Source of the DNA: an uncultured Chloroflexia bacterium
Lineage (GTDB): Bacteria; Chloroflexota; Limnocylindria; Limnocylindrales; CSP1-4
Direction: 5' to 3'
DNA: 64,000 bases
NCBI GenBank assembly: GCA_963833225.1
Contig: CAWHXD010000019.1
Location: forward strand, 416,001 to 480,000
A model generated the notes under the pieces. That model had not been told where the DNA came from. It did no database searches and saw only the letters and a program-made list of their open reading frames with translations. A program made the translations under genes and the position numbers. Below are positions 7,257 to 64,000 of the stretch, piece by piece (position 1 is the first letter of the stretch; each line of letters opens with the position of its first letter).

Positions 7257-7270
7257 TGATAGCGATCCCA
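7257..7270. promoter_or_regulatory. Putative LacI-type operator
   Basis: TGATAGCGATCCCA, 10/14 match to the palindrome at 27605. Lies in the divergent region upstream of larA. Confidence 0.45.
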
Positions 7271-7292
7271 GCCACTGCTCGCTGGCCGATCC

Positions 7293-8582: not shown

Positions 8583-8592
8583 GCCCGTTCGT

Positions 8593-8621
8593 TTGACATG
8601 CCAACGTCCGCTGTCTACCGT
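8593..8621 (+). promoter_or_regulatory. Sigma70-type promoter, followed by LacI-like site GACAAACGTTGT
   Basis: TTGACA-17 bp-TACCGT, 30 bp upstream of the TTG start, which has an AGAGGAG RBS. Confidence 0.7.
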
Positions 8622-8650
8622 GGACAAACGTTGTTTCAGAGGAGCCGACC

Positions 8651-9520: not shown

Positions 9521-10599
9521 TCACGCGGTTTGATCCCGTCGCCGAGGCCTGCCGGATCGAGGTCCCCGACGCCCATCGACGGCCGATCGCCATCGTCGGC
9601 GCCGGCGCCATCGTGGACTTCGCGCACCTGCCGGCCTATCGCGCCGCCGGCCTCGAGGTTGCCGGGATCCACAACCACCATCCCGCGCGGGCCGTCGACG
9701 TGGCCGGCCGTCACGGTGTGCCGCGGGTCTACGAGACGCTCGAGGACCTGCTTGGCGACGACCGGGTCGAGGTGGTGGACGTCGCCGTGTCCGCGGCCGC
9801 CCAGCCCGAGATCGTGCGCCGGGCGCTCGAATCGGGGCGCCACGTGCTAGCCCAGAAGCCGTTCGCACCGGATCCGGCCACCGGCCAGGCGCTGGTGGAC
9901 CTCGCCGAGTCGCGCGGGCTGGTCCTGGTCGTGAACCAGCAGCTCCGCTTCGACGAGGGGATGGCCGCGGCCCACCGGATGGTCGAGCTGGGCTGGATCG
10001 GCGACGTCACCGCGATGTCGATCACGGTCAACATCTGGACGGACTGGCATTCCTGGCCATGGATGCTCGAGACACCCCGGCTGGAGGTGATGGTCCATTC
10101 GATCCACTATCACGACGTGATCCGCTGGTTCCTGGGCGAGCCGTCGCTCGTGTTCAGCGTCGGAGGCCGCACGCCGGGCCAGGCGCCCGTCGGGGAGACG
10201 CGGACCGTGACCACGTCCACCTATCCGTCCGGCGCGATCTCCGTGGTCCACGCCAACCACGAGAACGGCACCGGTGACAACCTCGCGACGTTCCGCATCG
10301 ATGGCTCGCGGGGTGCGATCCGGGGCACCCTGGGCCTGCTCTACGACTACCCCAGCGGGCGGCCGGACACCCTGGAGATCAGCAGCGAGGTGCTGCCGAC
10401 TGACGGCTGGGTCCCCTATCCGGTGGGCTCACGCTGGCTGCCCGACGCGTTCCTGGGGCCTATGGCGTCGCTGCTGCGGGCGGTCGCCACCGGGTCCACG
10501 CCCCGTTCCAGCGGCCGCGACAACGTGGGCACGCTGCGGCAGATCCAGCGGATCTACGAATCGATGGAGCGGGGAGCGGCGGTCCGGGTCGAGGGCTGA
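9517..10599 (+). CDS. Gfo/Idh/MocA family oxidoreductase
   Basis: IAIVGAGAI...HLPAY, HVLAQKPFA, VNQQLRF, HSIHYHD. GTGA overlap with the upstream stop. Confidence 0.9.
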   Translation: MITRFDPVAEACRIEVPDAHRRPIAIVGAGAIVDFAHLPAYRAAGLEVAGIHNHHPARAVDVAGRHGVPRVYETLEDLLGDDRVEVVDVAVSAAAQPEIVRRALESGRHVLAQKPFAPDPATGQALVDLAESRGLVLVVNQQLRFDEGMAAAHRMVELGWIGDVTAMSITVNIWTDWHSWPWMLETPRLEVMVHSIHYHDVIRWFLGEPSLVFSVGGRTPGQAPVGETRTVTTSTYPSGAISVVHANHENGTGDNLATFRIDGSRGAIRGTLGLLYDYPSGRPDTLEISSEVLPTDGWVPYPVGSRWLPDAFLGPMASLLRAVATGSTPRSSGRDNVGTLRQIQRIYESMERGAAVRVEG

Positions 10600-51935: not shown

Positions 51936-52013
51936 GTCCTTGCTCCCAGTGCCGCCCCGGCGCCATGTGCGTCGTAGCGGGTCCAATGATAGCCAACTGG
52001 CAAGCAATTGGAT

Positions 52014-52466
52014 ATGCTGGCGAGCGTGACATCCCATGATCCCCTGGCGGCCCTGGACCGCATCGTCATCGGGGCCATCGGCCTGACCACGCACGCGCTC
52101 GCCGAGGCCGCTCCCGCGACCGAGCTGACCTTCCCGCAGTGGCGCGCGCTCCTGATCCTCGGCGAGGACCAGGACGGCGCCCGGGTGGGCCAGGTGGCCA
52201 CGCGGGTGGGTGCCACGCTGCCGGCGACCAGCCGCCTTCTGCGACGGCTCGCCCGGCGCGACCTCGTCGCCCTCGTCCCCGACGAGCTCGACCATCGGGC
52301 CACGCGCGCCAGGCTCACGGTCCGCGGCCGGGAGGTCCGGATCGCGATCCTCGCCTACCGCGGCGCGGCGCTGCGGGAGATCGCCAGCCGCCTGGACGAC
52401 CGTCATGGGGGCCCGACCCGGTCGTCGCTCGAGGCCCTCGCTGAGGCGTTCGAGGCGTACGCCTGA
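52014..52466 (+). CDS. MarR-family transcriptional regulator
   Basis: ELTFPQWRAL, VG.TLPATSRLL.RL..RDLV, D.R....RLT.RG. Confidence 0.9.
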   Translation: MLASVTSHDPLAALDRIVIGAIGLTTHALAEAAPATELTFPQWRALLILGEDQDGARVGQVATRVGATLPATSRLLRRLARRDLVALVPDELDHRATRARLTVRGREVRIAILAYRGAALREIASRLDDRHGGPTRSSLEALAEAFEAYA

Positions 52467-54547
52467 TGCAGGACCTCCGCCCGCGTTTCGACGCCAGGAT
52501 GCGGCGGATGCAGCGGCGGATCCGGTCCGCCAGCTACCTGCGGAAATGGGTCGTCCTGGGCGCCCTGATCGGGGTCGTCGGTGGCCTCGGCGCGATCACC
52601 TTCTATACCGCCCTGGACGTGGCGACCCACCTGTTCCTCGGGGTGCTGGGCGGCTACGTCCCGCCGTCGCCCGCCGGGGAGGGCGGCGCCCCCATCGTGG
52701 CCGGCTTCGACCGGCCCTGGGCCATCCCGCTCGTGGTCGCGCTCGGTGGACTCATCTCTGGGCTCATCGTGTTCCGCTTCGCCCCGGAAGCGGAGGGACA
52801 CGGGACGGATGCCGCGATCGCCGCCTTCCACCACCACCCGCGCGGGATCCGTGCACGCATCCCCCTCGTCAAGCTCGTCGCCTCCGCCGTCACCATTGGC
52901 TCGGGCGGCTCGGGCGGCCGCGAGGGCCCCACGGCCCAGATCAGCGCCGGGTTCGGGTCCTATCTCGGCCGGCTCCTGGACCTCGACGCACGAGACGCGC
53001 GGATCGCCGTTGCCGTCGGCATGGCCGCGGGGATCGGGGCCATCTTCCGGGCGCCGCTTGGTGGCGCCGTCCTGGGTGCCGAGCTCCTGTACCGCGATGA
53101 CGTGGAATCGGATGCCCTGGTCCCGTCGTTCATCGCCACGATCGTCGCCTACTCGATCTTCGGGACCGTCGAGGGGTTCAGCCCCATCTTCGGCGCGCAG
53201 GCACGGTTCGGGTTCAGCGATCCGGCACAGCTCGGCTGGTACGCGCTGATCGGTCTCGTGTGCGGCCTGGTGGGCCTGCTCTACATCCGCAACTTCTACG
53301 GCGTGACGGCCTGGTTCAGTCGATGGGCAGCGCCTCGCTGGCTCAAGCCGGCGATCGCGGGGTTCGTGGTCGGATGCATCGGTCTCATCATCCCCGGCGC
53401 CCTGGGAACCGGCTACGGCTTCCTCCAGGCCGGCCTCGACCGCGATGCCCTCGCGGCGATCCCGCTGTGGATGGTCCTCCTGCTGCCGTTCGCCAAGATC
53501 CTCGCGACCTCGCTCTCGATCGGCTCCGGCGGTTCGGGCGGCATCTTCGGTCCCGGGATGTTCATCGGCGGCATGCTTGGGGCCGCGATCTGGCGGCTCC
53601 TCGAGCCCATCGCCCCCGCCATCCCGGCGGATCCCGCCCCATTCGTCATCGTGGCCATGATGGCTGTGTTCGGCAGCGTGGCCCACGCACCGCTCGCGGT
53701 GATGCTGATGGTGGCCGAGATGACCGGCAACCTCTCGATGCTGGCTCCGGCGATGGTCGCTGTCGGGCTCGCCATGTTCGTGGTGGGCCCGCGGTCCATC
53801 TACAAGAGCCAGCTGATCACGCGGGCGGACTCACCAGCACACCGCTTCCGCTTCGCGCTGCCCCTGCTGGCCGCGGTCGCGGCCGGTGACGCGGCCCGCC
53901 AGGCGCGCGTGATCGTCCAGTCGGACGAGACCGTCGCAGCGGCTCGCGGGCGGATGATCGCCGCCGGTGTCCCTGGAGCCCCCGTGATCGCGCGCGACGG
54001 AACGGTCACCGGCGTGGTGGACCAGGAGGCCCTCGACGGCGTGCCCGATGACGAGCTCGTGGGCCACCACCTGACCGCTCAGGAACCGATCCTGGTGGCC
54101 GAGGACGGCCTCGATGACGCGCTGGGCGCGCTCGCCGACCACGCCCGGGACTGGGCACCCGTTGTCTCGGGCCACCGCCTGATGGGCATCCTGTCGGTTC
54201 GTGACGCGATGGGCGCCTATCGCTCCGCTCTCAACAGCAACGTCCGGCAGGTGCGCGGGTTCCGGGCGGACGGCGTCATCGTGGAGACCGAGGTCGTGAA
54301 GGGGTCGGCGCTGGCCGGCCGCACGGTGGCCGGCGTCCAGTGGCCGCGGAAGGTGGTCGTGGTCGCCATCGAGCGCCACGAGACGCTGCTGGTCCCGCGG
54401 GGCGATCTGGTGATGGAGCCGGGCGACAAGATCTCGCTGTTCGCCGACACCGGGGCAGCCGCCGAGCTGGACACGCTGCTGCACGCCGAGGCGCCACCTG
54501 TCGCCGACGCCGAAGGCGGGGATCCGGCCCCGACACCCGTCGCCTAG
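52466..54547 (+). CDS. ClC chloride channel/transporter with CBS pair and C-terminal RCK_C (TrkA-C) domain
   Basis: EAEGHGTD, GGSGGREGP, IFRAPLGG, GGSGGIFGP, MVAEMTG; degenerate CBS pair; GS.LAGRTV....WP..VVVVAIER......PRGD.VMEPGD. Confidence 0.92.
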   Translation: MQDLRPRFDARMRRMQRRIRSASYLRKWVVLGALIGVVGGLGAITFYTALDVATHLFLGVLGGYVPPSPAGEGGAPIVAGFDRPWAIPLVVALGGLISGLIVFRFAPEAEGHGTDAAIAAFHHHPRGIRARIPLVKLVASAVTIGSGGSGGREGPTAQISAGFGSYLGRLLDLDARDARIAVAVGMAAGIGAIFRAPLGGAVLGAELLYRDDVESDALVPSFIATIVAYSIFGTVEGFSPIFGAQARFGFSDPAQLGWYALIGLVCGLVGLLYIRNFYGVTAWFSRWAAPRWLKPAIAGFVVGCIGLIIPGALGTGYGFLQAGLDRDALAAIPLWMVLLLPFAKILATSLSIGSGGSGGIFGPGMFIGGMLGAAIWRLLEPIAPAIPADPAPFVIVAMMAVFGSVAHAPLAVMLMVAEMTGNLSMLAPAMVAVGLAMFVVGPRSIYKSQLITRADSPAHRFRFALPLLAAVAAGDAARQARVIVQSDETVAAARGRMIAAGVPGAPVIARDGTVTGVVDQEALDGVPDDELVGHHLTAQEPILVAEDGLDDALGALADHARDWAPVVSGHRLMGILSVRDAMGAYRSALNSNVRQVRGFRADGVIVETEVVKGSALAGRTVAGVQWPRKVVVVAIERHETLLVPRGDLVMEPGDKISLFADTGAAAELDTLLHAEAPPVADAEGGDPAPTPVA

Positions 54548-54557
54548 GCCGTGCCGG

Positions 54558-55376
54558 CTACGCCTCGGTGGCCGCGATCAGGTCGTCGTACCCGGACGGG
54601 TCCGGGGCAACCCAGCGGTGGACGTACTCGAGGCGCATCGGCTCGCGGATCTGCGGATCGTCCTCGTCCATGGTCATCAGCAGCTCCACGAACCGGGCAT
54701 GGTCCGCCCGCGTCGCGTCGAGGACCGTGAAGTTGCAGTGGTTGAACGGCGGCGAGGTCCACGCGATGGCCAGTCCCTTGTCCGCCCCGGCGTCACGGAC
54801 CGCGGCCCACGTCGGCGCCGACACGACGCACGCATCGAGCTCGCCCGCCGCCAAACGCTCCAGCTGGGCGAACTCGGCTCCGCCGGTGTCACCGTGCTTG
54901 CCGAGGTCCCGGTCGAGGCGTTCGCCGCGGAAGGCGACCAGGGGGTCGAACCCGGACCGGCGCATGGCGAAGGCCGGCAGGATCCAGGCCTGGGGCGAGT
55001 CGCTGTCGCCGAACCCGACGCGCCGGCCGCGCAGTGCCTCGAGCCCGCCGCCGGCGGCGGGTGACCCGGCGGGCACGACGACGAGGCTGGTCCATCCTCG
55101 GTCGGTGTCGCGCATCGCGATCGGCCGACAGCTTCCGCCGGTCGCTCGCAGCGTGGCCACGTACGCAAGGTTCGTGTTCCACGCCACGTCGATCCAGCCA
55201 TCCGCCAGGGCGGCCACCTGCTCCTCGTAGGACGAGAACAGGACGTACTCCAGCGGCACGCCCCGGTCGCGGAACCAGCGCCGGAACGCCTCCCAGATGG
55301 TGACCACCTGCGCCTTGTACGCGACCGCCCCGACGCGGTAGACGGCCCGCCCCGAGGGCTTCATCACGCTCCCCAT
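54558..55376 (-). CDS. PhnD-like SBP-fold protein without signal peptide (Rv1680-like)
   Basis: VGAVAY...VV.IWE, YVLFSSY, IDVAWNTNLAYV, MRDTD, DS.QA.ILP, GKHGDTG..E, HCNFT. Matches remembered Rv1680 motifs. Confidence 0.85.
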   Translation of the reverse strand: MGSVMKPSGRAVYRVGAVAYKAQVVTIWEAFRRWFRDRGVPLEYVLFSSYEEQVAALADGWIDVAWNTNLAYVATLRATGGSCRPIAMRDTDRGWTSLVVVPAGSPAAGGGLEALRGRRVGFGDSDSPQAWILPAFAMRRSGFDPLVAFRGERLDRDLGKHGDTGGAEFAQLERLAAGELDACVVSAPTWAAVRDAGADKGLAIAWTSPPFNHCNFTVLDATRADHARFVELLMTMDEDDPQIREPMRLEYVHRWVAPDPSGYDDLIAATEA

Positions 55377-56521
55377 CAGAACAGGTCCATGCCGAGGAGC
55401 GCCTTGCCGACGAAGTCGCGGAGCACGTCCGTGGTGGGCGCCATCACCGTCCACGCGCGAGCGTCCCGGAAGTTCCGCTCGATCCCGAGGTGCCGCGAGA
55501 ACGCCGCCCCGCCGCAGGCACGCATCGCCGCATCGGTGACGTCGATCGCCATCTCGGCCGCCGCGGCCTTGAGCGCGAGCACCCCCAGCCGGGCTTCCGG
55601 CTCGCCGTCCTCGACCTGGCGGGCGACCTCGTAGAGCAGCGCCCGTGCCTGCATGTGGCGGATCTTCGCCTCCGCCAGGCGGGCCCGGACGCCCGGGATA
55701 TCCGCGAGCGACGAGCCGAGGTGCTGGAGGCGCGCGCCGCCGACGTGGTCCGTCGCGGTCGCGAGGGCCGCCGCGGCGATGCCCATCGAGGTGGCGGAGC
55801 CGGACAGCACGAACCAGGGGAGGGTGGCCGACATCATCAGCCCAAATCCGGAGCCGGGATCGCCCAGGCGTCGGTCCACGTCGACCTGGACCCCGCGGAA
55901 GGTGACCGGTGCCGAGGCATTGCCACGCATGCCGAGCCCGTCGAAGGCGACGGGAACGGCCAGGCCGTCGGAACGGGAATCAACGACGTACAGCTCGGTC
56001 TCCAGCGGGCTGGTTCCCCCCACGGCTCCGGTTGCCGCCACGTAGGAATCGGCTTCACCGGCCGAGGTCACCCATGACTTGTCGGCATCGATCGTGACGC
56101 TGGCTCCGGGACCTGGGAGGGCTCGCGACACCTGCGCCCAGAAGTGGCTCCGGGACCCCTTCTCGCTGTAGGCAAGCGTCGTGAGGTGTCGTCCGGCGGC
56201 AATCTCCCGCAGGATCTCCGCCTTGATCCCGTCGTCAGGCCCGGTGGTCCCCCCGGCGATGGTCCGCGAGCCGACGAGATGCATCGTGTAGACCATCCCG
56301 GTCGAGGCGCAGGCAGCCGCCACCTGCTCCACCACCCCCACAACCTCGGCCGCCGTCGCGCCGGCTCCCCCATAGGCGGTCGGCACGGCAAGGCCCAGCA
56401 GGTCGCTGCGTCGCAGGGCTTCGACCGCCTCGGCGGGGAAGCGGGCGGAGTGGTCGACGTCCGGGGCGTTGGCGCGGATCACCTCGATGGTCGCCTCGAG
56501 GTCGGGGGTCGCGACGGTCAT
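55376..56521 (-). CDS. Acyl-CoA dehydrogenase family protein (Rv1679/FadE16-like)
   Basis: LAYSEKGSRSHFWA, ADKSWVTSAG, GMRGNASAP, LPWF, ARLQHLG.SL, AMRACGGAAFS.HL.IERNFRDARA..VMAPT. Confidence 0.9.
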   Translation of the reverse strand: MTVATPDLEATIEVIRANAPDVDHSARFPAEAVEALRRSDLLGLAVPTAYGGAGATAAEVVGVVEQVAAACASTGMVYTMHLVGSRTIAGGTTGPDDGIKAEILREIAAGRHLTTLAYSEKGSRSHFWAQVSRALPGPGASVTIDADKSWVTSAGEADSYVAATGAVGGTSPLETELYVVDSRSDGLAVPVAFDGLGMRGNASAPVTFRGVQVDVDRRLGDPGSGFGLMMSATLPWFVLSGSATSMGIAAAALATATDHVGGARLQHLGSSLADIPGVRARLAEAKIRHMQARALLYEVARQVEDGEPEARLGVLALKAAAAEMAIDVTDAAMRACGGAAFSRHLGIERNFRDARAWTVMAPTTDVLRDFVGKALLGMDLF

Positions 56522-58074
56522 CTGAAATCCTCCACGTTGGTCGAGAGCCCGGTCTCGGGTTGGGCCAGGGCGCGCGTCGAGTCGGGCGCAGCCTGTTCAT
56601 TGGAGCGCGCCTCGATGACGGCTCGATGACGGGCCAGCCAGGCGGCGGTCCGGGGCGCCCTGGCGGGCTCCTCGACCACGGTGGGCGCCAGGGCGAGCAG
56701 GTCCGCGAGCGTGTCGATGTCTGGCCACGACTCGCCGGTGGCGGGCCGCCAGCCGGCACCGACAAGGCCCGCCTGCGTGGCGGCGCGAGCCGTGGTGCCG
56801 CCCAACCGGACGACCTCGAGGGCACCCCTGAGTCGCCGCTCCAGGGCCCGGCGGCGACGATCACGCAGGCGGGCCGGCCACCATGGAGGAGCGCCGGGCC
56901 AGCGGAGGCCGATGAGGTGATATCCCCCGTCGGGAGTTGGCCCCAGCACCGCCGCATCACCAGCCCGCCCGAGGCGCTCCAGCGCGGCCAGGATCACGTC
57001 CTCGTGGATCGACGGGTTGTCGCCGGCAACCGCGATCGCCCGGTCGGCCCCGGCGTCGAAGGCGGTGAGGAACACGTCCACGAGCGCCCCGGCAAGCCCG
57101 GAGGAGGTCTGGACCCGGATCGCCCAGTCGCGACCGACCAGGTCACGGATCGGAGCGACGTCCTCGATCCGCGGAACCATGATCAGGGTCGATGCCCGCG
57201 AGCGATCGGCAGCCCGGACGAGACCCGCCGCCGTGTCTGCGAGGCACGCGGCCCATGCCGAGGCCGTCAGTTCCTCGCCGATCTCCCTGGCCAGCCTGGT
57301 CTTGGCGTGGCCCGCGCCGGGCGCCTTGGCCATCAGCGCGAGGACCGGCGCCGGTCGGCGCTCGCGGACCGTGGTCTCGATCAGGGCCCTGGCTGCCGCT
57401 GCCGAGCCGCGCGGGGAGCCGGACACCTTGCTGGTCCCGCCCTGCCGGGGTCGGAAGCGAACGGCGATCTCGCGGATGACCAGGCCGCGGTCGGCCAGGG
57501 CCCGGGCGACCAGCTGGGCGGTCCATCCATACCCGTCGTGATCCAGCGCGAGGCGTCGGAGGGTGCCTGCGCGCAGGACCTTCGCCGGCGGCAGGTCGTG
57601 GACCCGCCGTCCCGTCAGCTGGCTGGCCAGGGCCGCGACGAGCGTGTTGCCGACCCGCGCGTGCCAGGGCATGGCGCCGCGCTCGATGAGCCGGCCCGGA
57701 CGACGCCCGAGGACCACGTCGGCGTCGGGGAGCGCGGCGGTGAGGCGCCCAACGTCGGCAGGGTCGCACGAGCCATCGCCGTCGAGGAACGCCACGGCAT
57801 CGTGCTCGTGACCGTCCGGGGCCGGGGCGAGCGCGACGTCGGTCCCGGTGCGGCAGGCGCGCCCGTAGCCTCGCCGCGGCTCCAGGATCAGCCGCGCTCC
57901 CGCCGCGGCCGCGACGACGGCGGTGGCGTCCCGAGAGCCCCCGTCGACGACCAGCACGCAGCACGCGGTCCCGTCGAGGAGACCTGCGACCACAGCCCCG
58001 ATCGCCGCCTCCTCGTCGAGCGTGGGGATCACGGCTGCCACCCGGAGCGGCACCCTGGCCGACGGCACGGTCAC
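56518..58074 (-). CDS. GT2 (Dol-P-Man synthase-like) glycosyltransferase fused to DUF2064 (CofC-like GT-A) domain
   Basis: VIPTLDEE..I, VVDGGSRD.T, RRGYGRAC..G, FLDGDGS, R.GG.SKVSG; then LMAKAPGAG.AKTRLA, GDNP, VLGPTPDGGYHLIG, DIDT..DL. Confidence 0.88.
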   Translation of the reverse strand: MTVPSARVPLRVAAVIPTLDEEAAIGAVVAGLLDGTACCVLVVDGGSRDATAVVAAAAGARLILEPRRGYGRACRTGTDVALAPAPDGHEHDAVAFLDGDGSCDPADVGRLTAALPDADVVLGRRPGRLIERGAMPWHARVGNTLVAALASQLTGRRVHDLPPAKVLRAGTLRRLALDHDGYGWTAQLVARALADRGLVIREIAVRFRPRQGGTSKVSGSPRGSAAAARALIETTVRERRPAPVLALMAKAPGAGHAKTRLAREIGEELTASAWAACLADTAAGLVRAADRSRASTLIMVPRIEDVAPIRDLVGRDWAIRVQTSSGLAGALVDVFLTAFDAGADRAIAVAGDNPSIHEDVILAALERLGRAGDAAVLGPTPDGGYHLIGLRWPGAPPWWPARLRDRRRRALERRLRGALEVVRLGGTTARAATQAGLVGAGWRPATGESWPDIDTLADLLALAPTVVEEPARAPRTAAWLARHRAVIEARSNEQAAPDSTRALAQPETGLSTNVEDFR

Positions 58075-59581
58075 GGTGCGTCGCTCGAGACAGGTCCGAG
58101 CAGCGTGAACCGCCCGTCCGTGGCGATCACCCGGCGGTCCTCCCCGCGGATTCTGGTGATCGCCCGCTCTCGATTGGCGCTGGCCCAGGAGCTGGGGCTC
58201 CATGCGTCCGCGTCGAGGAGGACATAGCCCCCCGCGATGTTCCGGGGGTTGCGGTTCACCAGCCGGATCTCCGAACGGGACGCCAGCGGCGCTGCAAGCC
58301 CCTCGTCGACGACTAGGAGGGCGTCCGGCGGCACAGACCCGGCGATCATCCGCACGGCCCCGATTGCGGCGGGCCGGTGGTACGGCGCGGCCGCGCCCTG
58401 GTCGAACGGCGGCACGGAACCCTGGACGGCGGCGACGACCAGCGCCGGTCCCGCCAGGCCGACCACGCCGACCACGCGAAGCGCTCCTGCCCCCCGGGCC
58501 GTCGCGCGTGGCGCCCAAGCCAGGCGAGCGCCCGTCGAGCGCCGAACGCGGCCGCGACGAGCGCCGGCGCCACGAGGATGATCGGGTACTGGAGGAGCAG
58601 CAGAGCCTGGGGTGGATGGTGCGAGAGGAGCACCGCCGCGAGTGGCGGTGCCAGAAGCAGCAGCCAGCGGGGCCTGAGGAGCGGCAGCCCGGCGAGCGAC
58701 ACGAGGAGCCCGGCAACCTTGAACCAGGTTCGATCCTGGGTCAGCGCGGCGATCACCCGGTCGGGCATGCGGAACGGGGTGAGCAGGATCCCGGGTCCGG
58801 AGCCCAGCCAGCGGTAGTAGGCCGCGGTGTCGACGATCGCCCCGTCGCGCGCGATGGGCATCAGGATCCCGAACACGATGACCGCCCAGGCGGTCGCGAC
58901 GATCGCCAGGGCGGCGCCTCGGCGACGTGCCCGACCATGCGCCAGCCCCCACGTCGCGAGGCCCACGACGAACACGGCATAGGTGACATCCTCGCGGGTG
59001 GACAGCGCGAGCGCGGCCAGGATCCAGGTGGCCGCTCCTCGGCCGGTCAGGGCTGCCCAGCCGGCCGCCAGGGCCAGCACGACGCCGGCGACCTCGGGAT
59101 GGAAGTCGGCCCGGATCACCTGTTGGGTGACCGCCCAGGCGGGGATGGGCAGGGCGAGCCCCAGGGCAACCAGCCCGGCGTGGCGGCTCGGCCGGAGCGC
59201 CGCACGGAGGAACAGGAAGCCTGCCGGGGCCAGCGCCGCGACCGCCATCGCATGCAGCAGGCTGAGCAGGCGAGCGTCGAGCCACAGGCCGCGCTCCAGG
59301 AGCGCCGGAACGACCAGGATGGGCGAGAAGTGCAGCCCCAGGAACGACCCGTCGCCAAAGCTGGTCAACCACGCCCCGTCCTCGCCGACCCGCCAGACCA
59401 GCTGCTGGAAGAACGCCTGGTCGTACGCCGGTGTGGCCAGGCCGTCCGCGCGGGCCAGGAGCAGCGACGCGATCCAAACGGCCGCGAGGACCGACACCCC
59501 GCAGATCACGACCGCCGTGCCAACCGATGTCAGGTGGCGCGGACGAGGCCCGACGGTCGATGTCTCTCCGACCAGCGCCAC
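58071..59581 (-). CDS. DUF2079 family multi-pass membrane protein (GT-C-like; frameshift at G6 run ~58490)
   Basis: AYDQAFFQQ.VW, FLGLHFSPIL, DFHPE, TRED, QY. C-terminal VPPDA domain is in a second frame. Confidence 0.82.
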
Positions 59582-59589
59582 GATCGAGA

Positions 59590-60654
59590 TCAGGCCCCGG
59601 TCGGGATCGCAGCCGACGTGGCAGCCGCGGTCGCCCGCCGCTCGGCCGTCGTCAGGAGCGGGCTGTCGCCGGTGCGGTAGCGGCGGGCGATCCCCTGGGC
59701 GGCGCGCCTGACCGCCTCCGCCGCGTCGACCGAGGGCCGCCAGCCGAGGGCGGCGATCGCTCGGGTGTCGAACGCCACGAACGGCGTGTCGCCCCGCCAG
59801 CCGGCGCCCTTGGCGGCGACCTCCCGGTAGATCCGGGTCACCGTCGACGGGTCGATGCCGAGCGCCTCCACGATCAGGTCCGCCACCTCGTCCACGCTGA
59901 GGGTCCCCTCCGGTCCCACGTTGAGGACGGTGACCGGATCGGTCGCGAGACGCGCCGCATGGCGCATCCCGGCCACCAGGTCCGCCACGTCGACGAAGGG
60001 CTTGCGCTGGCGGCCGTCGCCCAGGATCTCGAGCCGGTCCGGATCACGCAGCAGCTTGACGACGAGGTCGTGGACCACGCCGTGGTCCGAGCTGGCACCC
60101 TGGGTGTTGCCGAAGCGGAAGGCGAGGGCCCGCCAGCCGTACAGGTGCGCGAAGCCGGACACGATCGCCTCGCCGGCCAGCTTGCCAGCCGCGTAGTGGG
60201 ATGCCGGCCGGAAGGGGCCGTCGCCCTCGGCGGTCGGCCGCCCGTGCGAGTCCCCGTAGACCACACCCGACGAGGCGTACCAGAGATCGGTCACGCCGTG
60301 GCGGAGCATCGTCTCGCACACGGTCTCCGTCCCCTGGATCCCGGCTCGGAAGTCGCGCTCGGGGTGGCCATATCCGCCCGCGATGTCGGTGCCCGCCGCA
60401 AGGTGGACGACCCGCCGGCAGCCCGCGATCGCGGCCTCGACCGCGCCCGCTTCGGCCACATCACCCTCAACGAGATGCCAGCCGGGCCTCCCGGCCAGCC
60501 GGGCCTCCCAGCCGGGGCTCGCGGTCGAGAGGTCGTCGAGGATCGTGACCTCGCAGCCGTCGTCGAGCAACGAACTGACCACTTCGCTGCCGACGAACCC
60601 GGCCCCCCCGGTGACCAGGGACGGGACGGGGGCAAGGGCTTCGGGCTCCGTCAC
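59590..60654 (-). CDS. NAD-dependent nucleotide-sugar epimerase/dehydratase (GalE-like)
   Basis: LVTGGAGFVGS, LDDLST, VHLAA, YASSGVVYG, YAAGK, HGVVHD.V.KL, ILGDGRQRK.F. Confidence 0.9.
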   Translation of the reverse strand: MTEPEALAPVPSLVTGGAGFVGSEVVSSLLDDGCEVTILDDLSTASPGWEARLAGRPGWHLVEGDVAEAGAVEAAIAGCRRVVHLAAGTDIAGGYGHPERDFRAGIQGTETVCETMLRHGVTDLWYASSGVVYGDSHGRPTAEGDGPFRPASHYAAGKLAGEAIVSGFAHLYGWRALAFRFGNTQGASSDHGVVHDLVVKLLRDPDRLEILGDGRQRKPFVDVADLVAGMRHAARLATDPVTVLNVGPEGTLSVDEVADLIVEALGIDPSTVTRIYREVAAKGAGWRGDTPFVAFDTRAIAALGWRPSVDAAEAVRRAAQGIARRYRTGDSPLLTTAERRATAAATSAAIPTGA

Positions 60655-60658
60655 CTCG

Positions 60659-61213
60659 TCAGCCGGGCCAGCGCCGGCGCGTCGCGGCGAACCGGGCGTC
60701 GAGGCCATGCCACCGGCCGGCCCGGAACGCGGCCAGGCAGAGCAGTGGGAGCCACTCCAGCGAGTACTCGTAGATCCACTTGTCGTTCCACAGCGTCGCG
60801 AACTGCAGGTGGAGCGCCATCCCGGCCGCGAGGAGGGCGGCGATGGGCGTCGCCAGGCCCAGGATCAGGAGCACCCCGACCAGCACCTCGGCGGCCCCGA
60901 GGCCGAACGCGAACAGCCCGAAGTTCGGGAGGACCACGTTCTCGACGAGGGCGCGGTACGGCTCGACGGGGTGCGGCTGGGTGACGACCTCGTACTGGAG
61001 GATCGAGTAGGCGCTGCGATTGCCGGTGGCCGCGATGACGAACCCCAGCGGGGTGTCGGGCCACAGGTTCGGGACGGCCGGCAGGAGCTTGGCAATCCCG
61101 TTGTGGAGGTACACGATCCCGAAGTAGATGCGGATCGCGGCCATCGCCCGCCCGAACCAGCGACTCCCGACGGCCTCCTCGATGGAGCCCCGCGGCGAAG
61201 CCATCGCGGTCAT
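60659..61213 (-). CDS. DoxX/DoxD-family membrane protein
   Basis: AAIRIYFGIVYL.NG..K, AEVLVGVLLILGL.T, G...GLD. AGGAGG RBS. Confidence 0.85.
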   Translation of the reverse strand: MTAMASPRGSIEEAVGSRWFGRAMAAIRIYFGIVYLHNGIAKLLPAVPNLWPDTPLGFVIAATGNRSAYSILQYEVVTQPHPVEPYRALVENVVLPNFGLFAFGLGAAEVLVGVLLILGLATPIAALLAAGMALHLQFATLWNDKWIYEYSLEWLPLLCLAAFRAGRWHGLDARFAATRRRWPG

Positions 61214-61238
61214 CAGATCCTCCTCCTGCAGGCGACGG

Positions 61239-62405
61239 TCAGCCGCACACGAAACGGTCGAGCCGGGCGGCGCGACCAGCCACGAGATCCACGAGGCGGC
61301 TCCGGACGCTGTCAAGGGCAGTCGCGAGCGAGGCGTCGGCCGGTGTCGGGAGCCGCATGTCGGGGTCGTTGGAGATCGGGTGCCACGACCACCCGAGCGC
61401 GTCGTATGTCGGCTCCGGCGCGACATCGTCCGCGCGGATGGCCTCACCCGCGTCGGCCGCCCCTCGGAGCGCGATGGGTCGGAAGATGCGGTCGGCGGGC
61501 GCAACTCCCAGCTCGTCGGCCAGGCGGTGGAGCGCCGGCAGCTCGCCGAGGCTTGCCTCCGAGAGGCTGGCGGCAAGCCGGACCGGGACGCCGGCATCGC
61601 GCAGGGTCGCGATCCCCGCCAGTGCGCGCGCGTGGGCTCCCGCGCCGCGATGCGCATCGTGGAGCACGGGCGTTGCCGAATCGAGGCTCACCTGGAAGGT
61701 GACGCGCCGCCCGCCCGCAGCGACCGTGCGCAGCCGGTCCCATCGCGGGCCGCGCAGGAGCATCGCGTTGCTCAGGATCGTGACCGGGATCATGGCGGAA
61801 ACGGCGCTGACGATCTCGGGCAGGTCCGGCCGCAGCGTCGGCTCGCCGCCCGTCAGGAACAGGCGCTCGAACCCGAGGCCGGCGGCCTCGCCGGCGAGCT
61901 CGACGATCCTCGCTCCATCGACTCGGCGCGGGTCGGCACGTGGGCCGGCCACCACACAGCAGTAGTCGCAGGCGAGATTGCAGTCGTAGTTGGTGTAGAT
62001 CCACAGCCGCCGCGGCATCAGCTCGCCGACCTGGTCAAGGGTGCTCGCACCGGGCTGCGCCGAGCCCTGGTCGTCGGTGCCGGCATCACGGTCGCCGGGT
62101 GCCGCCCAGTCCGTGCGCGCTCGCCCCTTGCGCAGGTAGTACCGGCGCCAGCCCGGGCGCCCGGGATCGTCCTCGATTCGCAGGAGCCCATGACCCGCCG
62201 AGGTGGCGAAGCCCTGGAGCTCCTGGGCCAGTGCCGAGACCGGGCTCGTGATCAGCAGGACCTGTCCGCGTCGGAGGCCCAGGAGCGCCGCATGGATGCG
62301 CAGCAGGAGACCCGAGCCCAGATCTGCCCGGCCGTCCTCGAGCTCGGCGTGGACCGGGATCGGCCGGGTGCCTCCGTAGGAGGGGAGCGCCATCGGCAGC
62401 GTCAT
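61239..62405 (-). CDS. Radical SAM protein (Rv1681/MoeX-like) with N-terminal TusA/SirA-like domain
   Basis: RLWIYTNYDCNLACDYCC, LTGGEP, QVSLDS, HD..RG.G, WHP, C-terminal FVCG. N-terminus GSGLLL...L..GQVL.I.S....QEL..FA...GH.......YYLRKG. Confidence 0.9.
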   Translation of the reverse strand: MTLPMALPSYGGTRPIPVHAELEDGRADLGSGLLLRIHAALLGLRRGQVLLITSPVSALAQELQGFATSAGHGLLRIEDDPGRPGWRRYYLRKGRARTDWAAPGDRDAGTDDQGSAQPGASTLDQVGELMPRRLWIYTNYDCNLACDYCCVVAGPRADPRRVDGARIVELAGEAAGLGFERLFLTGGEPTLRPDLPEIVSAVSAMIPVTILSNAMLLRGPRWDRLRTVAAGGRRVTFQVSLDSATPVLHDAHRGAGAHARALAGIATLRDAGVPVRLAASLSEASLGELPALHRLADELGVAPADRIFRPIALRGAADAGEAIRADDVAPEPTYDALGWSWHPISNDPDMRLPTPADASLATALDSVRSRLVDLVAGRAARLDRFVCG

Positions 62406-62533
62406 GAGCGGCACGGTACGAGGGCCCTGTGACGCCACGGTGACGCTTGACCTCCCCGCGCTGGCATCAGCGGCCCCGCGAGCTGCGTCCGATGGCCCTT
62501 GCCCGGGCCCCGTGACACGGGCAGCCTCGACGG

Positions 62534-63019
62534 ATGTGGACGAGACGGGGCGGCACCGGCGGGGCGCTCGACGGGCCGTCGCTGCGCGCCGCGGGCATCG
62601 TCTGGATGGTCGTGAACGCGGTGAACGTGCTCCAGGCCGCCGGGTTCGCGACGCGCCCGTTCGCCCCTGAGGTCAACCCGGTTCTCGGTCTGGTCATCGC
62701 GGCCCTGGCCGTGCCCGCCACCTGGGCGCTCCTGATCTTCGTCCGCCAGCGGGCCGGCTGGCGGCATCTTGTGGGCCCGGTCGCCTTCGACGTGTTCGTG
62801 GTCCTGATGCTGTGGGTGGATCAGATCGCCAACATCGAGTGGCGCAACCCCGTCGTCCCGGCCATCCAGGTCCCGTACCTGTCCCTGTTCTTCGGCAGCA
62901 TCCTGCTGATGGGGCTCCCCATGTTCCGGATCGACCGCCGTCGGTGGCTGGTCACAGCGGTCACGACGATCACCCTGCTTGCGGCCATGATCTACGCGAC
63001 GGCGGCCGGCGTCGGCTGA
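62534..63019 (+). CDS. Hypothetical membrane protein (about 5 TM)
   Basis: Several hydrophobic helices; coding-like codon usage. Confidence 0.75.
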   Translation: MWTRRGGTGGALDGPSLRAAGIVWMVVNAVNVLQAAGFATRPFAPEVNPVLGLVIAALAVPATWALLIFVRQRAGWRHLVGPVAFDVFVVLMLWVDQIANIEWRNPVVPAIQVPYLSLFFGSILLMGLPMFRIDRRRWLVTAVTTITLLAAMIYATAAGVG

Positions 63020-63027
63020 CGACAGCC

Positions 63028-63049
63028 CCCACTGGCCGGGGCCGGTGGG
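63028..63049 (+). terminator. GC-rich hairpin after the membrane protein gene
   Basis: CCCACTGGCC-GG-GGCCGGTGGG. Confidence 0.4.
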
Positions 63050-63087
63050 CACTATTGCCGGGCGTGGGTCAGCGCCATCCTTGCGGC

Positions 63088-64000
63088 ATGCCCGACGACG
63101 TCCTCGACTGGCTCCTGGATCCCGCTGATCCCGGGGTCCGCCACCTCGCGCTCCGGGATCTCCTGGGACGCCAGCCCAGCGACCCGGAGCTCACCCTCGC
63201 CCGCGACGAAGCGATGGCCGCGCCGCCCATCCGCACCATCCTCGACGCGCAGGACGCGGCCGGCTGGTGGGTCAGACCCGGCCCGGGCTACGGCGGCAAG
63301 TACACGGGAACGACCTGGTCGCTCATCTTCCTCGAGCAGATGGGTGCTGATGGTGCCGATCCCGGGATCGCCCGCGGCTGCGACTACGTCCTCGACCACG
63401 CGCAGGCACCAAGCGGCGGCTTCGGCTACGGCGGCTGGCTGGACGAGGGCAGGCGGCCGCCCCCGTCCTCGGTGATCCACTGCCTCAACGGCAACCTGCT
63501 GCGAGCCCTGATCCGCTTCGGCTGGCTGGACGATCCGCGCACGCAGGCCGCGATCGCGTGGCAGACCGCGGCCATCACCGGGGACGGCGATATCCGCTGG
63601 TACAGGTCGACGACCAGCGGACCGGGCTTCGCCTGCGGCGTCAACGAGCAGCTACCCTGCGGCTGGGGCGCGGTCAAGGCGCTGCGGGGCCTGGCCGCGA
63701 TCCCGCCCGATCGCCGAAGCCCGGAGGTCCGGGCCGCCATCGATGCCTCCGTCGCGTTCCTGCTCTCGCGCGATCCCGCGGTCGCGGACTACCCGATGGG
63801 GTGGGGCAACGCCCGCCCCAGTGGCTCCTGGTTCAAGCTCGGCTTCCCGTCGGGGTACGTGGCGGACGTGCTCCAGGTGCTCGAGGTTCTCGCGGAGCTG
63901 GGGCTCGCCGATGACCCGCGCCTGGACCGTTCCCTGGACCTCGTGCGGGGCAAGCGCGATGCGACCGGCCGCTGGCGGAACGAGAACCCGTACCGGGGCA
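63088..64000 (+). CDS. Prenyltransferase/squalene-cyclase-like alpha-alpha toroid protein (3'-truncated; absent from ORF track)
   Basis: Translated by hand: MPDDVLDWLLDPADPGVRHLALRDLLG...ILDAQDAAGWW...YGGKYTGTTWSL...HCLNGN...KLGFPSGY.ADVL..LE.L...KRDATGRW; no stop before the window end. Confidence 0.75.
   Translation, partial: MPDDVLDWLLDPADPGVRHLALRDLLGRQPSDPELTLARDEAMAAPPIRTILDAQDAAGWWVRPGPGYGGKYTGTTWSLIFLEQMGADGADPGIARGCDYVLDHAQAPSGGFGYGGWLDEGRRPPPSSVIHCLNGNLLRALIRFGWLDDPRTQAAIAWQTAAITGDGDIRWYRSTTSGPGFACGVNEQLPCGWGAVKALRGLAAIPPDRRSPEVRAAIDASVAFLLSRDPAVADYPMGWGNARPSGSWFKLGFPSGYVADVLQVLEVLAELGLADDPRLDRSLDLVRGKRDATGRWRNENPYRG

What the first reader, a model, noticed from the sequence alone, without database searches (positions are those of the whole stretch)
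54558..62405. Rv1679-Rv1680-Rv1681-type radical SAM cassette merged with a lipid-linked glycosylation module
Seen: seven co-oriented, tightly packed genes (overlaps or gaps of 25 bp or less), in the order radical SAM, DoxX, epimerase, DUF2079 membrane protein, GT2-DUF2064 fusion, acyl-CoA dehydrogenase, signal-less SBP-fold protein. Knowledge (from memory): the first gene and the last two carry the distinctive motifs of M. tuberculosis Rv1681 (MoeX), Rv1679 (FadE16) and Rv1680, a conserved cassette of unknown function. GT2 plus DUF2064 transferases accompany other radical SAM systems such as the ArsS arsenosugar locus. Inference: one pathway makes an unusual radical-SAM/flavin-derived moiety, activates it or loads it on polyprenyl-phosphate, and transfers it outside the membrane via the GT-C-like protein. 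This would be a functional clue for the orphan mycobacterial cassette.
Basis: partly seen in the sequence, partly recalled or inferred. Interest (0 to 1): 0.85.

Follow-up and report, generated by a model that had tools for sequence, protein, structure and literature searches.

The report
Radical-SAM-linked envelope sugar-capping operon
An uncultured Chloroflexota bacterium packs an uncharacterised radical-SAM enzyme set (relatives of the tuberculosis genes Rv1679-Rv1681) into one operon with a complete lipid-carrier sugar-transfer pathway, and the same partnership recurs in many other bacteria, which suggests a testable role for these orphan enzymes in decorating the cell envelope.

Summary
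The seven co-oriented genes are real, at the stated coordinates and in the stated order. One caveat: the DUF2079 gene has a one-base frameshift in a C6 run, and a 95%-alike public contig carries the extra base.

The radical SAM, ACAD and SBP-like proteins hit the NCBIfam Rv1681/Rv1679/Rv1680 families far above any other family. All three fall below the curated cut-offs, so they are relatives, not equivalogs.

The middle genes form a self-contained block: SDR epimerase, DUF2079 (GT-C fold by model) and a GT2::DUF2064 fusion. In other genomes of the class this block stands alone and ends with a nucleoside phosphorylase. By enzyme class that resembles the mycobacterial methylthioxylose cap pathway.

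The link to the radical SAM is not local chance.
- GT2 or DUF2064 lies within 10 kb of the radical SAM in 30 of 35 long Chloroflexota loci.
- It does so in 19 of 34 long metagenome loci.
- One of these loci holds a radical SAM that passes NCBI's Rv1681 cut-off.
- A second lineage holds all seven families in another order.

ACAD and SBP are optional partners. The compact, Mtb-like arrangement rarely has sugar-transfer genes nearby.

The chemistry is inferred. Earlier notes of this scan found the DUF2064-radical SAM link on other DNA.

The parts
61239..62405 (-). Radical SAM enzyme, a relative of the Rv1681 family. It has one CX3CX2C cluster motif and a C-terminal ...FVCG tail.
   Evidence: PF04055, 75.7 bits. 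NF049973, 267.2 bits against a cut-off of 380; next family 65.7 bits. The CX3CX2C cysteines are the only cysteines conserved in 153 relatives. The tail FVCG is found in 8 of 8 close relatives.
62118..62348 (-). N-terminal TusA-like domain of the radical SAM, with the active-site Cys replaced by Ser.
   Evidence: hhalign of this domain (A3) against free-standing TusA genes of related loci (A2): probability 88.9%, E 2.4e-6, 73 columns. Ser stands at the Cys position in 7 of 7. Pfam TusA alone gives only E 0.044.
60659..61213 (-). DoxX/DoxD-family small membrane protein.
   Evidence: PF07681, 36.2 bits; PF04173, 26.5 bits. It follows the radical SAM in the close loci L104, L105, L109, L110, L122 and L124.
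59590..60708 (-). NAD-dependent SDR sugar epimerase/dehydratase.
   Evidence: PF01370, 149.8 bits. Best NCBIfam hits are GalE (108 bits) and dTDP-glucose 4,6-dehydratase (101 bits), both below their cut-offs.
58071..59581 (-). DUF2079 membrane protein with a GT-C glycosyltransferase fold. It is read in two frames in this assembly.
   Evidence: PF09852, 94.6 bits on the N-terminal part. The AlphaFold model of the L105 orthologue has pLDDT 74.4 and pTM 0.79. All 8 Foldseek PDB matches with E<=0.001 are GT-C enzymes; the best is ArnT 5f15, E 7e-6. An invariant Asp follows the first helix.
58490..58495 (.). C6 homopolymer where the DUF2079 reading frame shifts.
   Evidence: The frame switch was mapped to 58454-58505. 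The run was read. A contig of run X2 has one more C here. 11 of 11 relatives are in one frame.
57361..58074 (-). GT2 domain of the fusion protein. It resembles polyprenyl-phosphate sugar synthases.
   Evidence: PF00535, 48 bits. Best NCBIfam hits, all below their cut-offs: AglJ 80.3, dolichyl-phosphate hexose transferase 61.9, PpgS 40.7 bits.
56518..57360 (-). DUF2064 domain of the fusion protein. It resembles the CofC-type nucleotidyltransferases.
   Evidence: PF09837, 53.4 bits. TIGR04282, 82.5 bits against a cut-off of 134. PDB 3cgx, E 9.6e-9. It is the only DUF2064 match in the genome.
55376..56521 (-). ACAD-fold flavoprotein, a relative of the Rv1679 family, without the canonical catalytic Glu.
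   Evidence: NF049984, 420.3 bits against a cut-off of 600; next family 138.7 bits. Ala (in MAPT) aligns with the Glu of YEGT in PDB 8i4p. MAPT is found in 18 of 20 family members.
54558..55376 (-). Leaderless SBP-fold protein, a relative of the Rv1680 family.
   Evidence: PF12974, 95.4 bits. NF049985, 245 bits against a cut-off of 400; next family 52.4 bits. The nearest solved structure is a phosphonate-binding protein, 7s6g, E 2.2e-9.

Best explanation
This is one operon with two functional units that work on the same product.

Unit 1 is a lipid-carrier glycosylation route.
- The DUF2064 domain (CofC-like) activates a sugar phosphate with a nucleotide.
- The SDR enzyme changes the sugar's configuration.
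- The GT2 domain loads the sugar on polyprenyl phosphate at the inner face of the membrane.
- DUF2079, a GT-C enzyme, transfers it to an envelope acceptor on the outer face.

In sister genomes this block stands alone and ends with a nucleoside phosphorylase. By enzyme class that matches the mycobacterial route in which 5'-methylthioadenosine becomes the methylthioxylose cap.

Unit 2 is the Rv1681-like radical SAM with its DoxX membrane partner, plus the optional ACAD-fold and SBP-fold proteins. It most likely makes or tailors the unusual sugar, or its 5'-substituted adenosine precursor, that unit 1 installs.

Shown: gene order and packing, the family or fold of each part, and recurrent linkage in several lineages with different gene orders.

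Inferred: every substrate, the direction of flow, and the role of the radical SAM, ACAD, SBP and DoxX proteins.
For: Packing: seven co-oriented genes with overlaps of 1-4 nt or gaps of at most 25 nt, bounded by a convergent and a divergent gene.

Copy number: DUF2064 and DUF2079 each have one match in the genome, both here.

Fold and family:
- DUF2079 models as GT-C. All 8 PDB matches at E<=0.001 are GT-C, and the best is ArnT bound to undecaprenyl phosphate.
- The best GT2 hits are AglJ, Dol-P-hexose transferase and PpgS. The DUF2064 part hits TIGR04282 and CofC-like models.

The block:
- Epimerase-DUF2079-GT2::DUF2064 is found in fixed order in 9 of 10 extra class loci fetched around DUF2064 matches.
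- A PNP_UDP_1 phosphorylase gene follows directly in 8 of those 9.

Linkage to the radical SAM:
- Class sample: 8 of 400 other genomes have the radical SAM. One of these (G612) holds only a C-terminal remnant. All 7 others also hold DUF2064. In G732, G740, G664 and G670 the whole block lies within 3 kb of the radical SAM. In G710 a DUF2064 piece lies at the contig end, 752 nt away. In G667 the block lies 8.3 kb away, and in G731 on another short contig.
- Phylum: in 96 loci, GT2 or DUF2064 is present in 57. In the 35 loci with at least 9 kb on both sides, 30 have GT2 or DUF2064, 14 have a GT-C (GT87-like or DUF2079), and 4 have none of the three.
- In 5 of 5 genomes that I chose for long contigs out of 19 positives, the best DUF2064 match lies 0.2-3.2 kb from the radical SAM, and in 4 of them it is the only match.
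- G137 (L004) has DoxX, GT2, DUF2064, ACAD, SBP, radical SAM, DUF2079 and epimerase co-directional in another order, confirmed by Pfam.
- Metagenome loci with at least 8 kb of flank (n=34): ACAD or SBP in 28, GT2 or DUF2064 in 19, both in 18.
- L169 reads: radical SAM (NF049973, 483.5 bits, over the cut-off), SBP and ACAD; then phosphorylase, DUF2064 (TIGR04282, 159.1 bits, over the cut-off), GT87-type GT-C, SPASM radical SAM, GT2; then DoxD.

Literature: MtxS (Rv0539) makes the polyprenyl-P-MTX donor, MtxT (Rv0541c) is the GT-C that transfers it, and the sugar derives from 5'-methylthioadenosine. I read passages only (PMC12088412; PMC8780516; PMC11127046).
Against: - The block occurs without any radical SAM match at E<=1e-30 in at least 7 sampled genomes: G196, G598, G562, G115, G528, G735 and G650. 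So it does not need unit 2.
- The cassette radical SAM-DoxX-ACAD-SBP is contiguous without the block in L109, L110 and L124.
- ACAD and SBP are dispensable. Five genomes of genus g3 have no Rv1679-type ACAD (best 144 bits), and only 1 of the 5 has the SBP.
- 4 of 35 long phylum loci have no GT2, DUF2064 or GT-C.
- The compact DoxX-ACAD-SBP-radical SAM type has GT2 in only 2 of 10 long loci and DUF2064 in 0 of 10. L138, which belongs to this type, passes all three NCBIfam cut-offs.
- The window's operon has no nucleoside phosphorylase. The nearest homologue (56% identical) lies on another contig.
- DUF2079 is frameshifted in this assembly.
- The epimerase and DUF2079 travel with the radical SAM only in this class, L123 and G137.
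- Related genomes are not independent counts.
Confidence: 0.5

Rival explanations
1. These are two unrelated units that only share a promoter or a neighbourhood. One is an ordinary envelope glycosylation block. The other is a separate radical SAM/DoxX/ACAD/SBP cassette with its own, non-sugar substrate.
For: The block stands alone in at least 7 genomes. The cassette is contiguous without it in L109, L110 and L124. The Mtb-like compact type rarely has GT genes nearby: 2 of 10 long loci.
Against: Linkage recurs at three scales and with different gene orders and different GT-C families: DUF2079 here and in G137, GT87-like elsewhere. DUF2064 is single-copy or nearly so, and lies within 3.2 kb of the radical SAM in 5 of 5 genomes checked. 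In the window the block sits between DoxX and ACAD with 4-nt overlaps.
Confidence: 0.2
2. The pathway makes a soluble, nucleotide-linked or glycosylated cofactor or metabolite rather than an envelope sugar. DUF2064 would act like CofC or MobA, the GT2 like the mycofactocin glycosyltransferase MftF, and DoxX would be a quinone-linked redox partner.
For: DUF2064 relatives hit CofC (43.7 bits, L041) and TIGR04282. The GT2 hits TIGR04283/MftF-like models weakly. A SPASM radical SAM related to tungsten-cofactor maturases lies within 10 kb in 43 of 96 phylum loci, and NUDIX in 39 of 96.
Against: A GT-C membrane transferase belongs to the clusters in several lineages. GT-C enzymes use lipid-linked donors outside the membrane (established knowledge; PMC11127046 passages). 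The GT2 domain scores higher against polyprenyl-phosphate sugar synthases than against MftF-like models.
Confidence: 0.1
3. It is an organoarsenic (arsenosugar-type) or selenium pathway, as the database names of TIGR04282/TIGR04283 and some earlier notes of this scan suggest.
For: The DUF2064 part hits the family that NCBI calls 'arsenosugar biosynthesis glycosyltransferase'. The SBP's second-best family is a putative selenate-binding protein. The genome has SelD. A flavoprotein of the 'N-terminal to SelD' type lies in L041.
Against: The genome has no ArsS: the best match to TIGR04167 is this radical SAM, at 46 bits against a cut-off of 300. SelD lies on another contig and within only 2 of 198 loci examined. 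No ArsM-like gene was met in the window's operon. ArsM itself was not searched for.
Confidence: 0.07
4. In this genome the cluster is decaying and no longer works, whatever it once made.
For: DUF2079 has a frameshift. The only other genome of the same genus with the block (G650, L114) has it broken into at least 6 frame changes. 12 of 13 sampled genomes of the genus have no DUF2064, and none of the 13 has the radical SAM.
Against: There is a single change, in a homopolymer, in an assembly of 20 contigs, which is the typical place for an assembly error. A 95%-alike public contig has the intact length. GC3 stays high in both parts. The other six genes are intact.
Confidence: 0.12

Closest known systems
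Methylthioxylose (MTX) capping of lipoarabinomannan in M. tuberculosis (MtxS Rv0539, MtxT Rv0541c)
   Same: The logic is the same. A GT2 enzyme makes a polyprenyl-phosphate pentose donor, a GT-C enzyme transfers it outside the membrane, and the sugar derives from a 5'-substituted adenosine (passages: PMC12088412, PMC8780516, PMC11127046). The stand-alone block of this class carries the matching enzyme classes: nucleoside phosphorylase, nucleotidyltransferase-like DUF2064, SDR epimerase, GT2 and GT-C.
   Different: Membership was not tested, because no M. tuberculosis sequence could be obtained. The GT-C here is DUF2079. That MtxT is of the GT87 type, and that Rv0535, Rv0536 and Rv0540 are phosphorylase, epimerase and DUF2064, is recalled or taken from earlier notes, not checked. 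GT2 and DUF2064 are fused here. The window's operon lacks the phosphorylase and adds a radical SAM, DoxX, ACAD and SBP.
NCBIfam families NF049973 / NF049984 / NF049985 (Rv1681 radical SAM, Rv1679 ACAD, Rv1680 SBP-like)
   Same: These are the best-scoring families for the three proteins, by wide margins. The three genes sit in one operon. In sister loci L109 and L110 they are contiguous with DoxX.
   Different: All three scores are below the curated cut-offs. Here the gene order is radical SAM ... ACAD-SBP, with a 4.7-kb block in between. The Rv1678 C-terminal membrane model NF049986 finds nothing in the genome. No function is published for the family in the library searched.
ArsS arsenosugar gene set (TIGR04167 with TIGR04282 and TIGR04283)
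   Same: A radical SAM enzyme travels with a DUF2064 transferase and a GT2 transferase (family names and hits).
   Different: The radical SAM is not ArsS (45-46 bits against a cut-off of 300). The GT2 scores better against AglJ/Dol-P-sugar synthases than against TIGR04283. I found no arsenic gene in the operon.
Three-component periplasmic glycosylation (GtrA/B/C; ArnC/ArnT; PpgS with a GT-C)
   Same: A GT2 polyprenyl-phosphate sugar synthase is paired with a GT-C transferase. ArnT is the best structural match of DUF2079. The general scheme is described in PMC11127046 (passages).
   Different: No GtrA, MATE or SMR flippase gene is present. A DoxX-family protein is the only small membrane protein, and it tracks the radical SAM, not the block. 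A nucleotidyltransferase-like domain is fused to the GT2.
TusA/DsrE sulfur-relay proteins
   Same: Free TusA and DsrE genes flank relatives of the radical SAM: TusA in 36 and DsrE in 37 of 96 phylum loci, and DsrE in 12 of 80 metagenome loci. The radical SAM's N-terminal domain is TusA-like.
   Different: In the window the domain has Ser in place of the persulfide-carrying Cys. No free TusA or DsrE gene is in the operon.

Membership tests
NF049973 Rv1681 family radical SAM | Score at or above NCBI's curated cut-off (380 bits) | tested here: not met
   267.2 bits, model positions 68-325 of 326. For comparison, L169 scores 483.5, L138 520.7 and L145 535.9, all over the cut-off.
NF049973 Rv1681 family radical SAM | CX3CX2C radical SAM cluster motif and no SPASM or twitch cysteines | tested here: met
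   The three motif cysteines are conserved in 97-98% of 153 relatives. No other cysteine column reaches 40%.
NF049984 Rv1679 family ACAD | Score at or above the curated cut-off (600 bits) | tested here: not met
   420.3 bits; next family 138.7 bits. L138 scores 653.9.
NF049985 Rv1680 family SBP-like protein | Score at or above the curated cut-off (400 bits) | tested here: not met
   245 bits; next family 52.4 bits. L138 scores 498.9.
Rv1679-Rv1681 cassette | Reciprocal best match with the M. tuberculosis proteins themselves | not testable with these tools
   No collection gave M. tuberculosis sequences.
Canonical acyl-CoA dehydrogenase | Catalytic Glu in the C-terminal YEGT motif | tested here: not met
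   Ala aligns with that Glu of PDB 8i4p. 18 of 20 family members read MAPT. That this Glu is the catalytic base is established knowledge. Some ACADs place the base elsewhere, which was not tested.
GT-C glycosyltransferases | Multi-helix membrane fold like ArnT, STT3 or PglB, with a conserved acidic residue after the first helix | tested here: met
   The model of the L105 orthologue has pTM 0.79. All 8 PDB matches at E<=0.001, and the first 31 listed, are GT-C enzymes or complexes holding them, with TM-scores of 0.31-0.47. Asp62 is invariant in 12 sequences.
Polyprenyl-phosphate sugar synthases (AglJ / DPM / PpgS type GT2) | Score over a family cut-off, or shown activity | tested here: inconclusive
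   They are the best hits but fall below their cut-offs: 80.3 of 325, 61.9 of 375, 40.7 of 370 bits.
TIGR04282 (DUF2064, 'arsenosugar biosynthesis glycosyltransferase') | Score at or above the curated cut-off (134 bits) | tested here: not met
   82.5 bits in the window. Pfam DUF2064 is met: 53.4 bits against a cut-off of 25.8. L041 (164.4) and L169 (159.1) pass TIGR04282.
ArsS (TIGR04167) | Score at or above 300 bits | tested here: not met
   45.3 bits. The whole genome's best match is 46 bits.
TusA sulfurtransferase | Fold similarity and the conserved active-site Cys | tested here: not met
   Profile similarity is 88.9%, E 2.4e-6. The Cys column holds Ser in 7 of 7 close relatives.
MTX pathway (MtxS/MtxT) | Sequence relationship of the GT2 to Rv0539 and of the GT-C to Rv0541c | not testable with these tools
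   No sequence or model of these proteins was at hand. Only the pathway logic could be compared.

The most novel reading that the evidence does not exclude
The Rv1681-type radical SAM works like ArsS, HpnH or MqnE. It adds the 5'-deoxyadenosyl radical of SAM to a sulfur (or selenium) atom supplied by a TusA/DsrE relay, and so makes a 5'-chalcogen-substituted adenosine de novo. A nucleoside phosphorylase, DUF2064, the SDR, the GT2 and a GT-C then turn this into a thio- or seleno-pentose cap on the cell envelope. The ACAD-fold and SBP-fold proteins tailor the 5-substituent. This would give the orphan Rv1679-81 families a function. It would also show that MTX-type capping exists far outside the mycobacteria.
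Probability: 0.12. Interest if true: 0.85.

Novelty: new variant of a known kind. Interest (0 to 1): 0.62.

Why it matters
Three families that NCBI names after M. tuberculosis Rv1679, Rv1680 and Rv1681 have no function in the literature I could search. No paper holds two of the three names. Rv1681/MoeX appears only in papers on TB biomarkers, diagnosis and vaccines, judged from search listings.

Their relatives repeatedly share clusters with DUF2064, GT2 and GT-C genes. That turns 'unknown' into a concrete and cheap hypothesis: these proteins make or tailor a lipid-carried envelope sugar.

The stand-alone five-gene block (phosphorylase, DUF2064, SDR, GT2, GT-C) in Chloroflexota also bears on an open point. 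PMC11127046 states that it is unclear whether the MTX-type modification exists outside lipoarabinomannan assembly (passage).

DUF2064 and DUF2079 gain working roles, as sugar-phosphate activation and GT-C transfer respectively.

Oscillochloris trichoides DG6, a named genome record, has the radical SAM next to DUF2064 (L010/L039). If it can be cultured, it offers an experimental entry.

Tried and rejected
- Expression: no RNA holder was listed for the stretch, so co-transcription could not be examined.
- Consensus scans found no sigma-70-like promoter and no intrinsic terminator in 54000-63200. This is uninformative at 72% GC.
- Rfam at E<=0.1 found nothing in 52000-64000.
- The ESM Atlas returned only DUF2079 clusters and no structure search.
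- NF049986 (Rv1678 C-terminal membrane domain) has no match in the genome, so the DoxX gene is not that family.
- Selenium link: SelD lies within 2 of 198 loci.
- Arsenic link: the genome has no ArsS.
- A flippase role for DoxX was considered and put aside, because DoxX was not found in the 9 stand-alone blocks.
- Angala et al. 2017 and 2018 (PMC5357196, PMC5831173) are not held. Details of Rv0535, Rv0536 and Rv0540 therefore rest on recall and on earlier notes. Supplements, which are closed, may list them.
- Complex prediction, the second structure job and the search of protein representatives were not used.
- The runs laid hold only small shares of the stretch. No habitat or strain is inferred from them.

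Full report
WHAT IS THERE

The window is G000:C19:416001-480000 of a 3.89-Mb, 20-contig, 86%-complete genome. GC is 72-75% across the region. The phylum is Chloroflexota. The closest proteins carry names such as 'Candidatus Limnocylindria bacterium'. The class assignment is therefore an inference.

Seven minus-strand genes fill 54558-62405:
- radical SAM;
- DoxX;
- SDR epimerase/dehydratase;
- DUF2079;
- a single-frame GT2::DUF2064 fusion (518 aa);
- an ACAD-fold protein;
- a leaderless PF12974 SBP-fold protein.

Junctions are a 25-nt gap, a possible 50-nt overlap (the epimerase start is uncertain), an 8-nt gap, and overlaps of 4, 4 and 1 nt. A ClC channel gene converges 10 nt beyond the last stop. 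A membrane-protein ORF diverges upstream.

THE DUF2079 FRAMESHIFT

GC3 and tblastn show that the DUF2079 gene changes frame between 58454 and 58505. The only homopolymer there is the C6 run at 58490-58495 on the + strand. In 11 of 11 relatives the gene is one frame of 496-540 aa. A Logan contig of run X2 is 275 nt long, differs at 13 letters and has depth 2.5. It carries one extra C behind 58489, which rejoins the two frames. An assembly error and a real strain-specific frameshift cannot be told apart here.

RELATION TO Rv1679-81

The best NCBIfam hits are the families named after Rv1681, Rv1679 and Rv1680, at 267.2, 420.3 and 245 bits. The next families score 65.7, 138.7 and 52.4 bits. The curated cut-offs are 380, 600 and 400, so none is met. 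These are related subfamilies, not equivalogs. Members that do pass exist in my sample:
- L138 passes all three, at 520.7, 653.9 and 498.9 bits.
- L145 and L169 pass for the radical SAM, at 535.9 and 483.5 bits.

M. tuberculosis sequences themselves could not be obtained.

THE SUGAR-TRANSFER BLOCK

DUF2064 and DUF2079 each have one match in the genome, both here.
- An AlphaFold model of the L105 DUF2079 (12-sequence alignment, pLDDT 74.4, pTM 0.79) finds only GT-C enzymes among its 8 PDB matches at E<=0.001: ArnT, AglB, ALG12 and OST. The first 31 listed matches are all of this kind. TM-scores are modest, at 0.31-0.47.
- The GT2 domain scores best against AglJ, Dol-P-hexose transferase and PpgS.
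- The DUF2064 domain scores best against TIGR04282. Its solved relative is 3cgx.

In the class sample DUF2064 is found in 36 of 401 genomes. That tally includes the unpublished G446 and G651, on which nothing else rests. Of 10 loci fetched around such matches, 9 hold epimerase-DUF2079-GT2::DUF2064 in that order, with no radical SAM, DoxX, ACAD or SBP found within the DNA fetched. In two of these genomes (G667, G731) the cassette lies elsewhere. In 8 of the 9 a PNP_UDP_1 nucleoside phosphorylase gene follows directly. In 6 of the 9 a molybdopterin oxidoreductase gene lies upstream.

The block is therefore a unit of its own. Its enzyme classes match the mycobacterial MTX route. There the sugar comes from 5'-methylthioadenosine, MtxS (a GT2) makes the decaprenyl-phosphate donor, and MtxT (a GT-C) transfers it (passages only).

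LINKAGE TO THE RADICAL SAM

The radical SAM is sporadic. It is found in 20 of 401 phylum genomes and 9 of 401 class genomes, G000 included, and in 0 of 13 other genomes of its own genus.

In the class:
- L104, L105, L106, L108 and the metagenome locus L123 join radical SAM and DoxX to the block.
- L109, L110 and L124 have radical SAM-DoxX-ACAD-SBP contiguous. The block of G667 lies 8.3 kb away.
- The g3 genomes lack an Rv1679-type ACAD, and only G732 has the SBP.

Among 96 non-duplicate phylum loci the families found within reach of the radical SAM are as follows.

| Family | Loci of 96 |
|---|---|
| GT2 | 44 |
| DUF2064 | 36 |
| GT2 or DUF2064 | 57 |
| DoxX or DoxD | 47 |
| SPASM radical SAM | 43 |
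| NUDIX | 39 |
| DsrE | 37 |
| TusA | 36 |
| GT87-like GT-C | 31 |
| ACAD | 16 |
| SBP | 7 |

With at least 9 kb on both sides (n=35), 30 have GT2 or DUF2064, 14 have a GT-C and 4 have none of the three. In 5 of 5 genomes that I picked for long contigs, the best DUF2064 match lies 208-3222 nt from the radical SAM. G137 (L004) carries all seven families co-directionally in another order.

In 34 metagenome loci with at least 8 kb of flank, 28 have ACAD or SBP, 19 have GT2 or DUF2064, and 18 have both.

L169 shows the fullest version: radical SAM, SBP, ACAD, phosphorylase, DUF2064, GT87, SPASM radical SAM, GT2 and DoxD.

Against this, the compact DoxX-ACAD-SBP-radical SAM type is the most Mtb-like in order. 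It has GT2 in only 2 of 10 long loci and DUF2064 in 0 of 10.

CLUES TO THE CHEMISTRY

- The radical SAM has only the CX3CX2C cysteines conserved. A C-terminal FVCG is found in 8 of 8 close relatives.
- Its N-terminal domain is TusA-like (hhalign 88.9%, E 2.4e-6). Ser replaces the Cys. In 25 of 80 metagenome loci, free TusA queries hit that domain directly.
- The ACAD has Ala where canonical ACADs have the catalytic Glu.
- The sulfur-relay neighbours (TusA, DsrE), a DinB-like protein that takes the SBP's place in 10 loci, and the DoxD family all point to sulfur chemistry in relatives. The window itself lacks free TusA and DsrE.
- SelD lies within 2 of 198 loci. The genome has no ArsS.

READING

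Best reading: the block installs a lipid-carried sugar on the envelope, and the radical SAM unit makes or tailors that sugar or its adenosine-derived precursor. Confidence is 0.5. Every substrate is inferred.

Rivals:
- mere adjacency (0.2);
- a soluble cofactor pathway (0.1);
- arsenic or selenium chemistry (0.07);
- a decaying cluster (0.12, not exclusive of the others).

PRIOR KNOWLEDGE

No paper in the library holds two of Rv1679, Rv1680 and Rv1681. DUF2064, DUF2079, TIGR04282 and TIGR04283 occur in 3 papers. By title and abstract, the two that were listed are not about their function.

Earlier notes of this scan reported the DUF2064-radical SAM link and the Rv1679-81 core on other DNA (e1-3366176). 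They also gave the MTX comparison (e1-2805709, e1-5204465), which led me to look for the phosphorylase. Those notes are AI notes. What I tested of them is stated above.

LIMITS

- There are no transcript data.
- There was no access to mycobacterial genomes.
- Counts rest on tblastn thresholds that I set.
- Related genomes are not independent.
- Loci were chosen by likeness to this radical SAM.

Noticed in passing
L113:3563-5158 (also L115, L116, L117, L118, L120): A molybdopterin oxidoreductase (Oxidored_molyb plus Mo-co dimerisation domain) lies upstream of the stand-alone epimerase-DUF2079-GT2::DUF2064-phosphorylase block in 6 of 9 class loci. It is absent from the window's operon.
   Followed up: partly
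L114 (G650, same genus as the window), about 5980-10086: The only other copy of the sugar-transfer block in the window's genus is broken into at least 6 frame changes across all four genes. It has no radical SAM, DoxX, ACAD or SBP nearby. This could be decay or a poor assembly.
   Followed up: partly
L041:6702-7877; L169:16111-17376; 43 of 96 phylum loci: A second radical SAM with a SPASM/twitch domain lies within 10 kb of the Rv1681-like radical SAM in many loci (in L041 the two are 2 kb apart, with ACAD and SBP between them). Its best NCBIfam hit is the tungsten-cofactor oxidoreductase maturase, at 140-146 bits against a cut-off of 380. The window has none.
   Followed up: partly
L126-L132, L136, L146, L155, L165, L175, L196: In a subset of metagenome loci a free TusA gene and a DsrE gene stand directly upstream of the TusA-like::radical SAM gene. 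No ACAD, SBP, GT2 or DUF2064 was detected in the stretch held.
   Followed up: no
L028, L066 and 8 further phylum loci: A DinB_2/MDMPI_N-like protein lies close to the Rv1679-like ACAD and the radical SAM in 10 phylum loci. It follows the ACAD where the SBP-like protein stands elsewhere in the two loci inspected (L028, L066).
   Followed up: no
L041:4802-6637 (minus strand); L123:8938-10389: A 612-aa pyridine nucleotide-disulfide oxidoreductase lies near the cluster. Its best NCBIfam hit is the domain found N-terminal to SelD (114.5 bits, cut-off 310).
   Followed up: no
window 52466-54547 (+): A ClC chloride channel with CBS and TrkA-C domains converges on the operon's last gene, with 10 nt between the two stops.
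   Followed up: no
window 62534-63019 (+) and 62812-63999 (+): Two ORFs diverge from the operon. One encodes a 161-aa hydrophobic protein with no Pfam match. The other is an open ORF with a weak squalene-hopene-cyclase-like repeat (E 6.5e-4, below the cut-off). They overlap in different frames, so only one may be real in the overlap.
   Followed up: no
L106:14858-15820; L108:13085-13607: The DUF2079 gene of L106 and the DoxX gene of L108 are also read in more than one frame. These genomes have few contigs. Indel errors in assemblies of this group may be common.
   Followed up: no
L112:5106-7172 (G667): A luciferase-like monooxygenase gene and a GNAT acetyltransferase gene fill part of the 8.3 kb between the radical SAM-DoxX-ACAD-SBP cassette and the sugar-transfer block. 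The same genes flank the block in G196 (L113).
   Followed up: no
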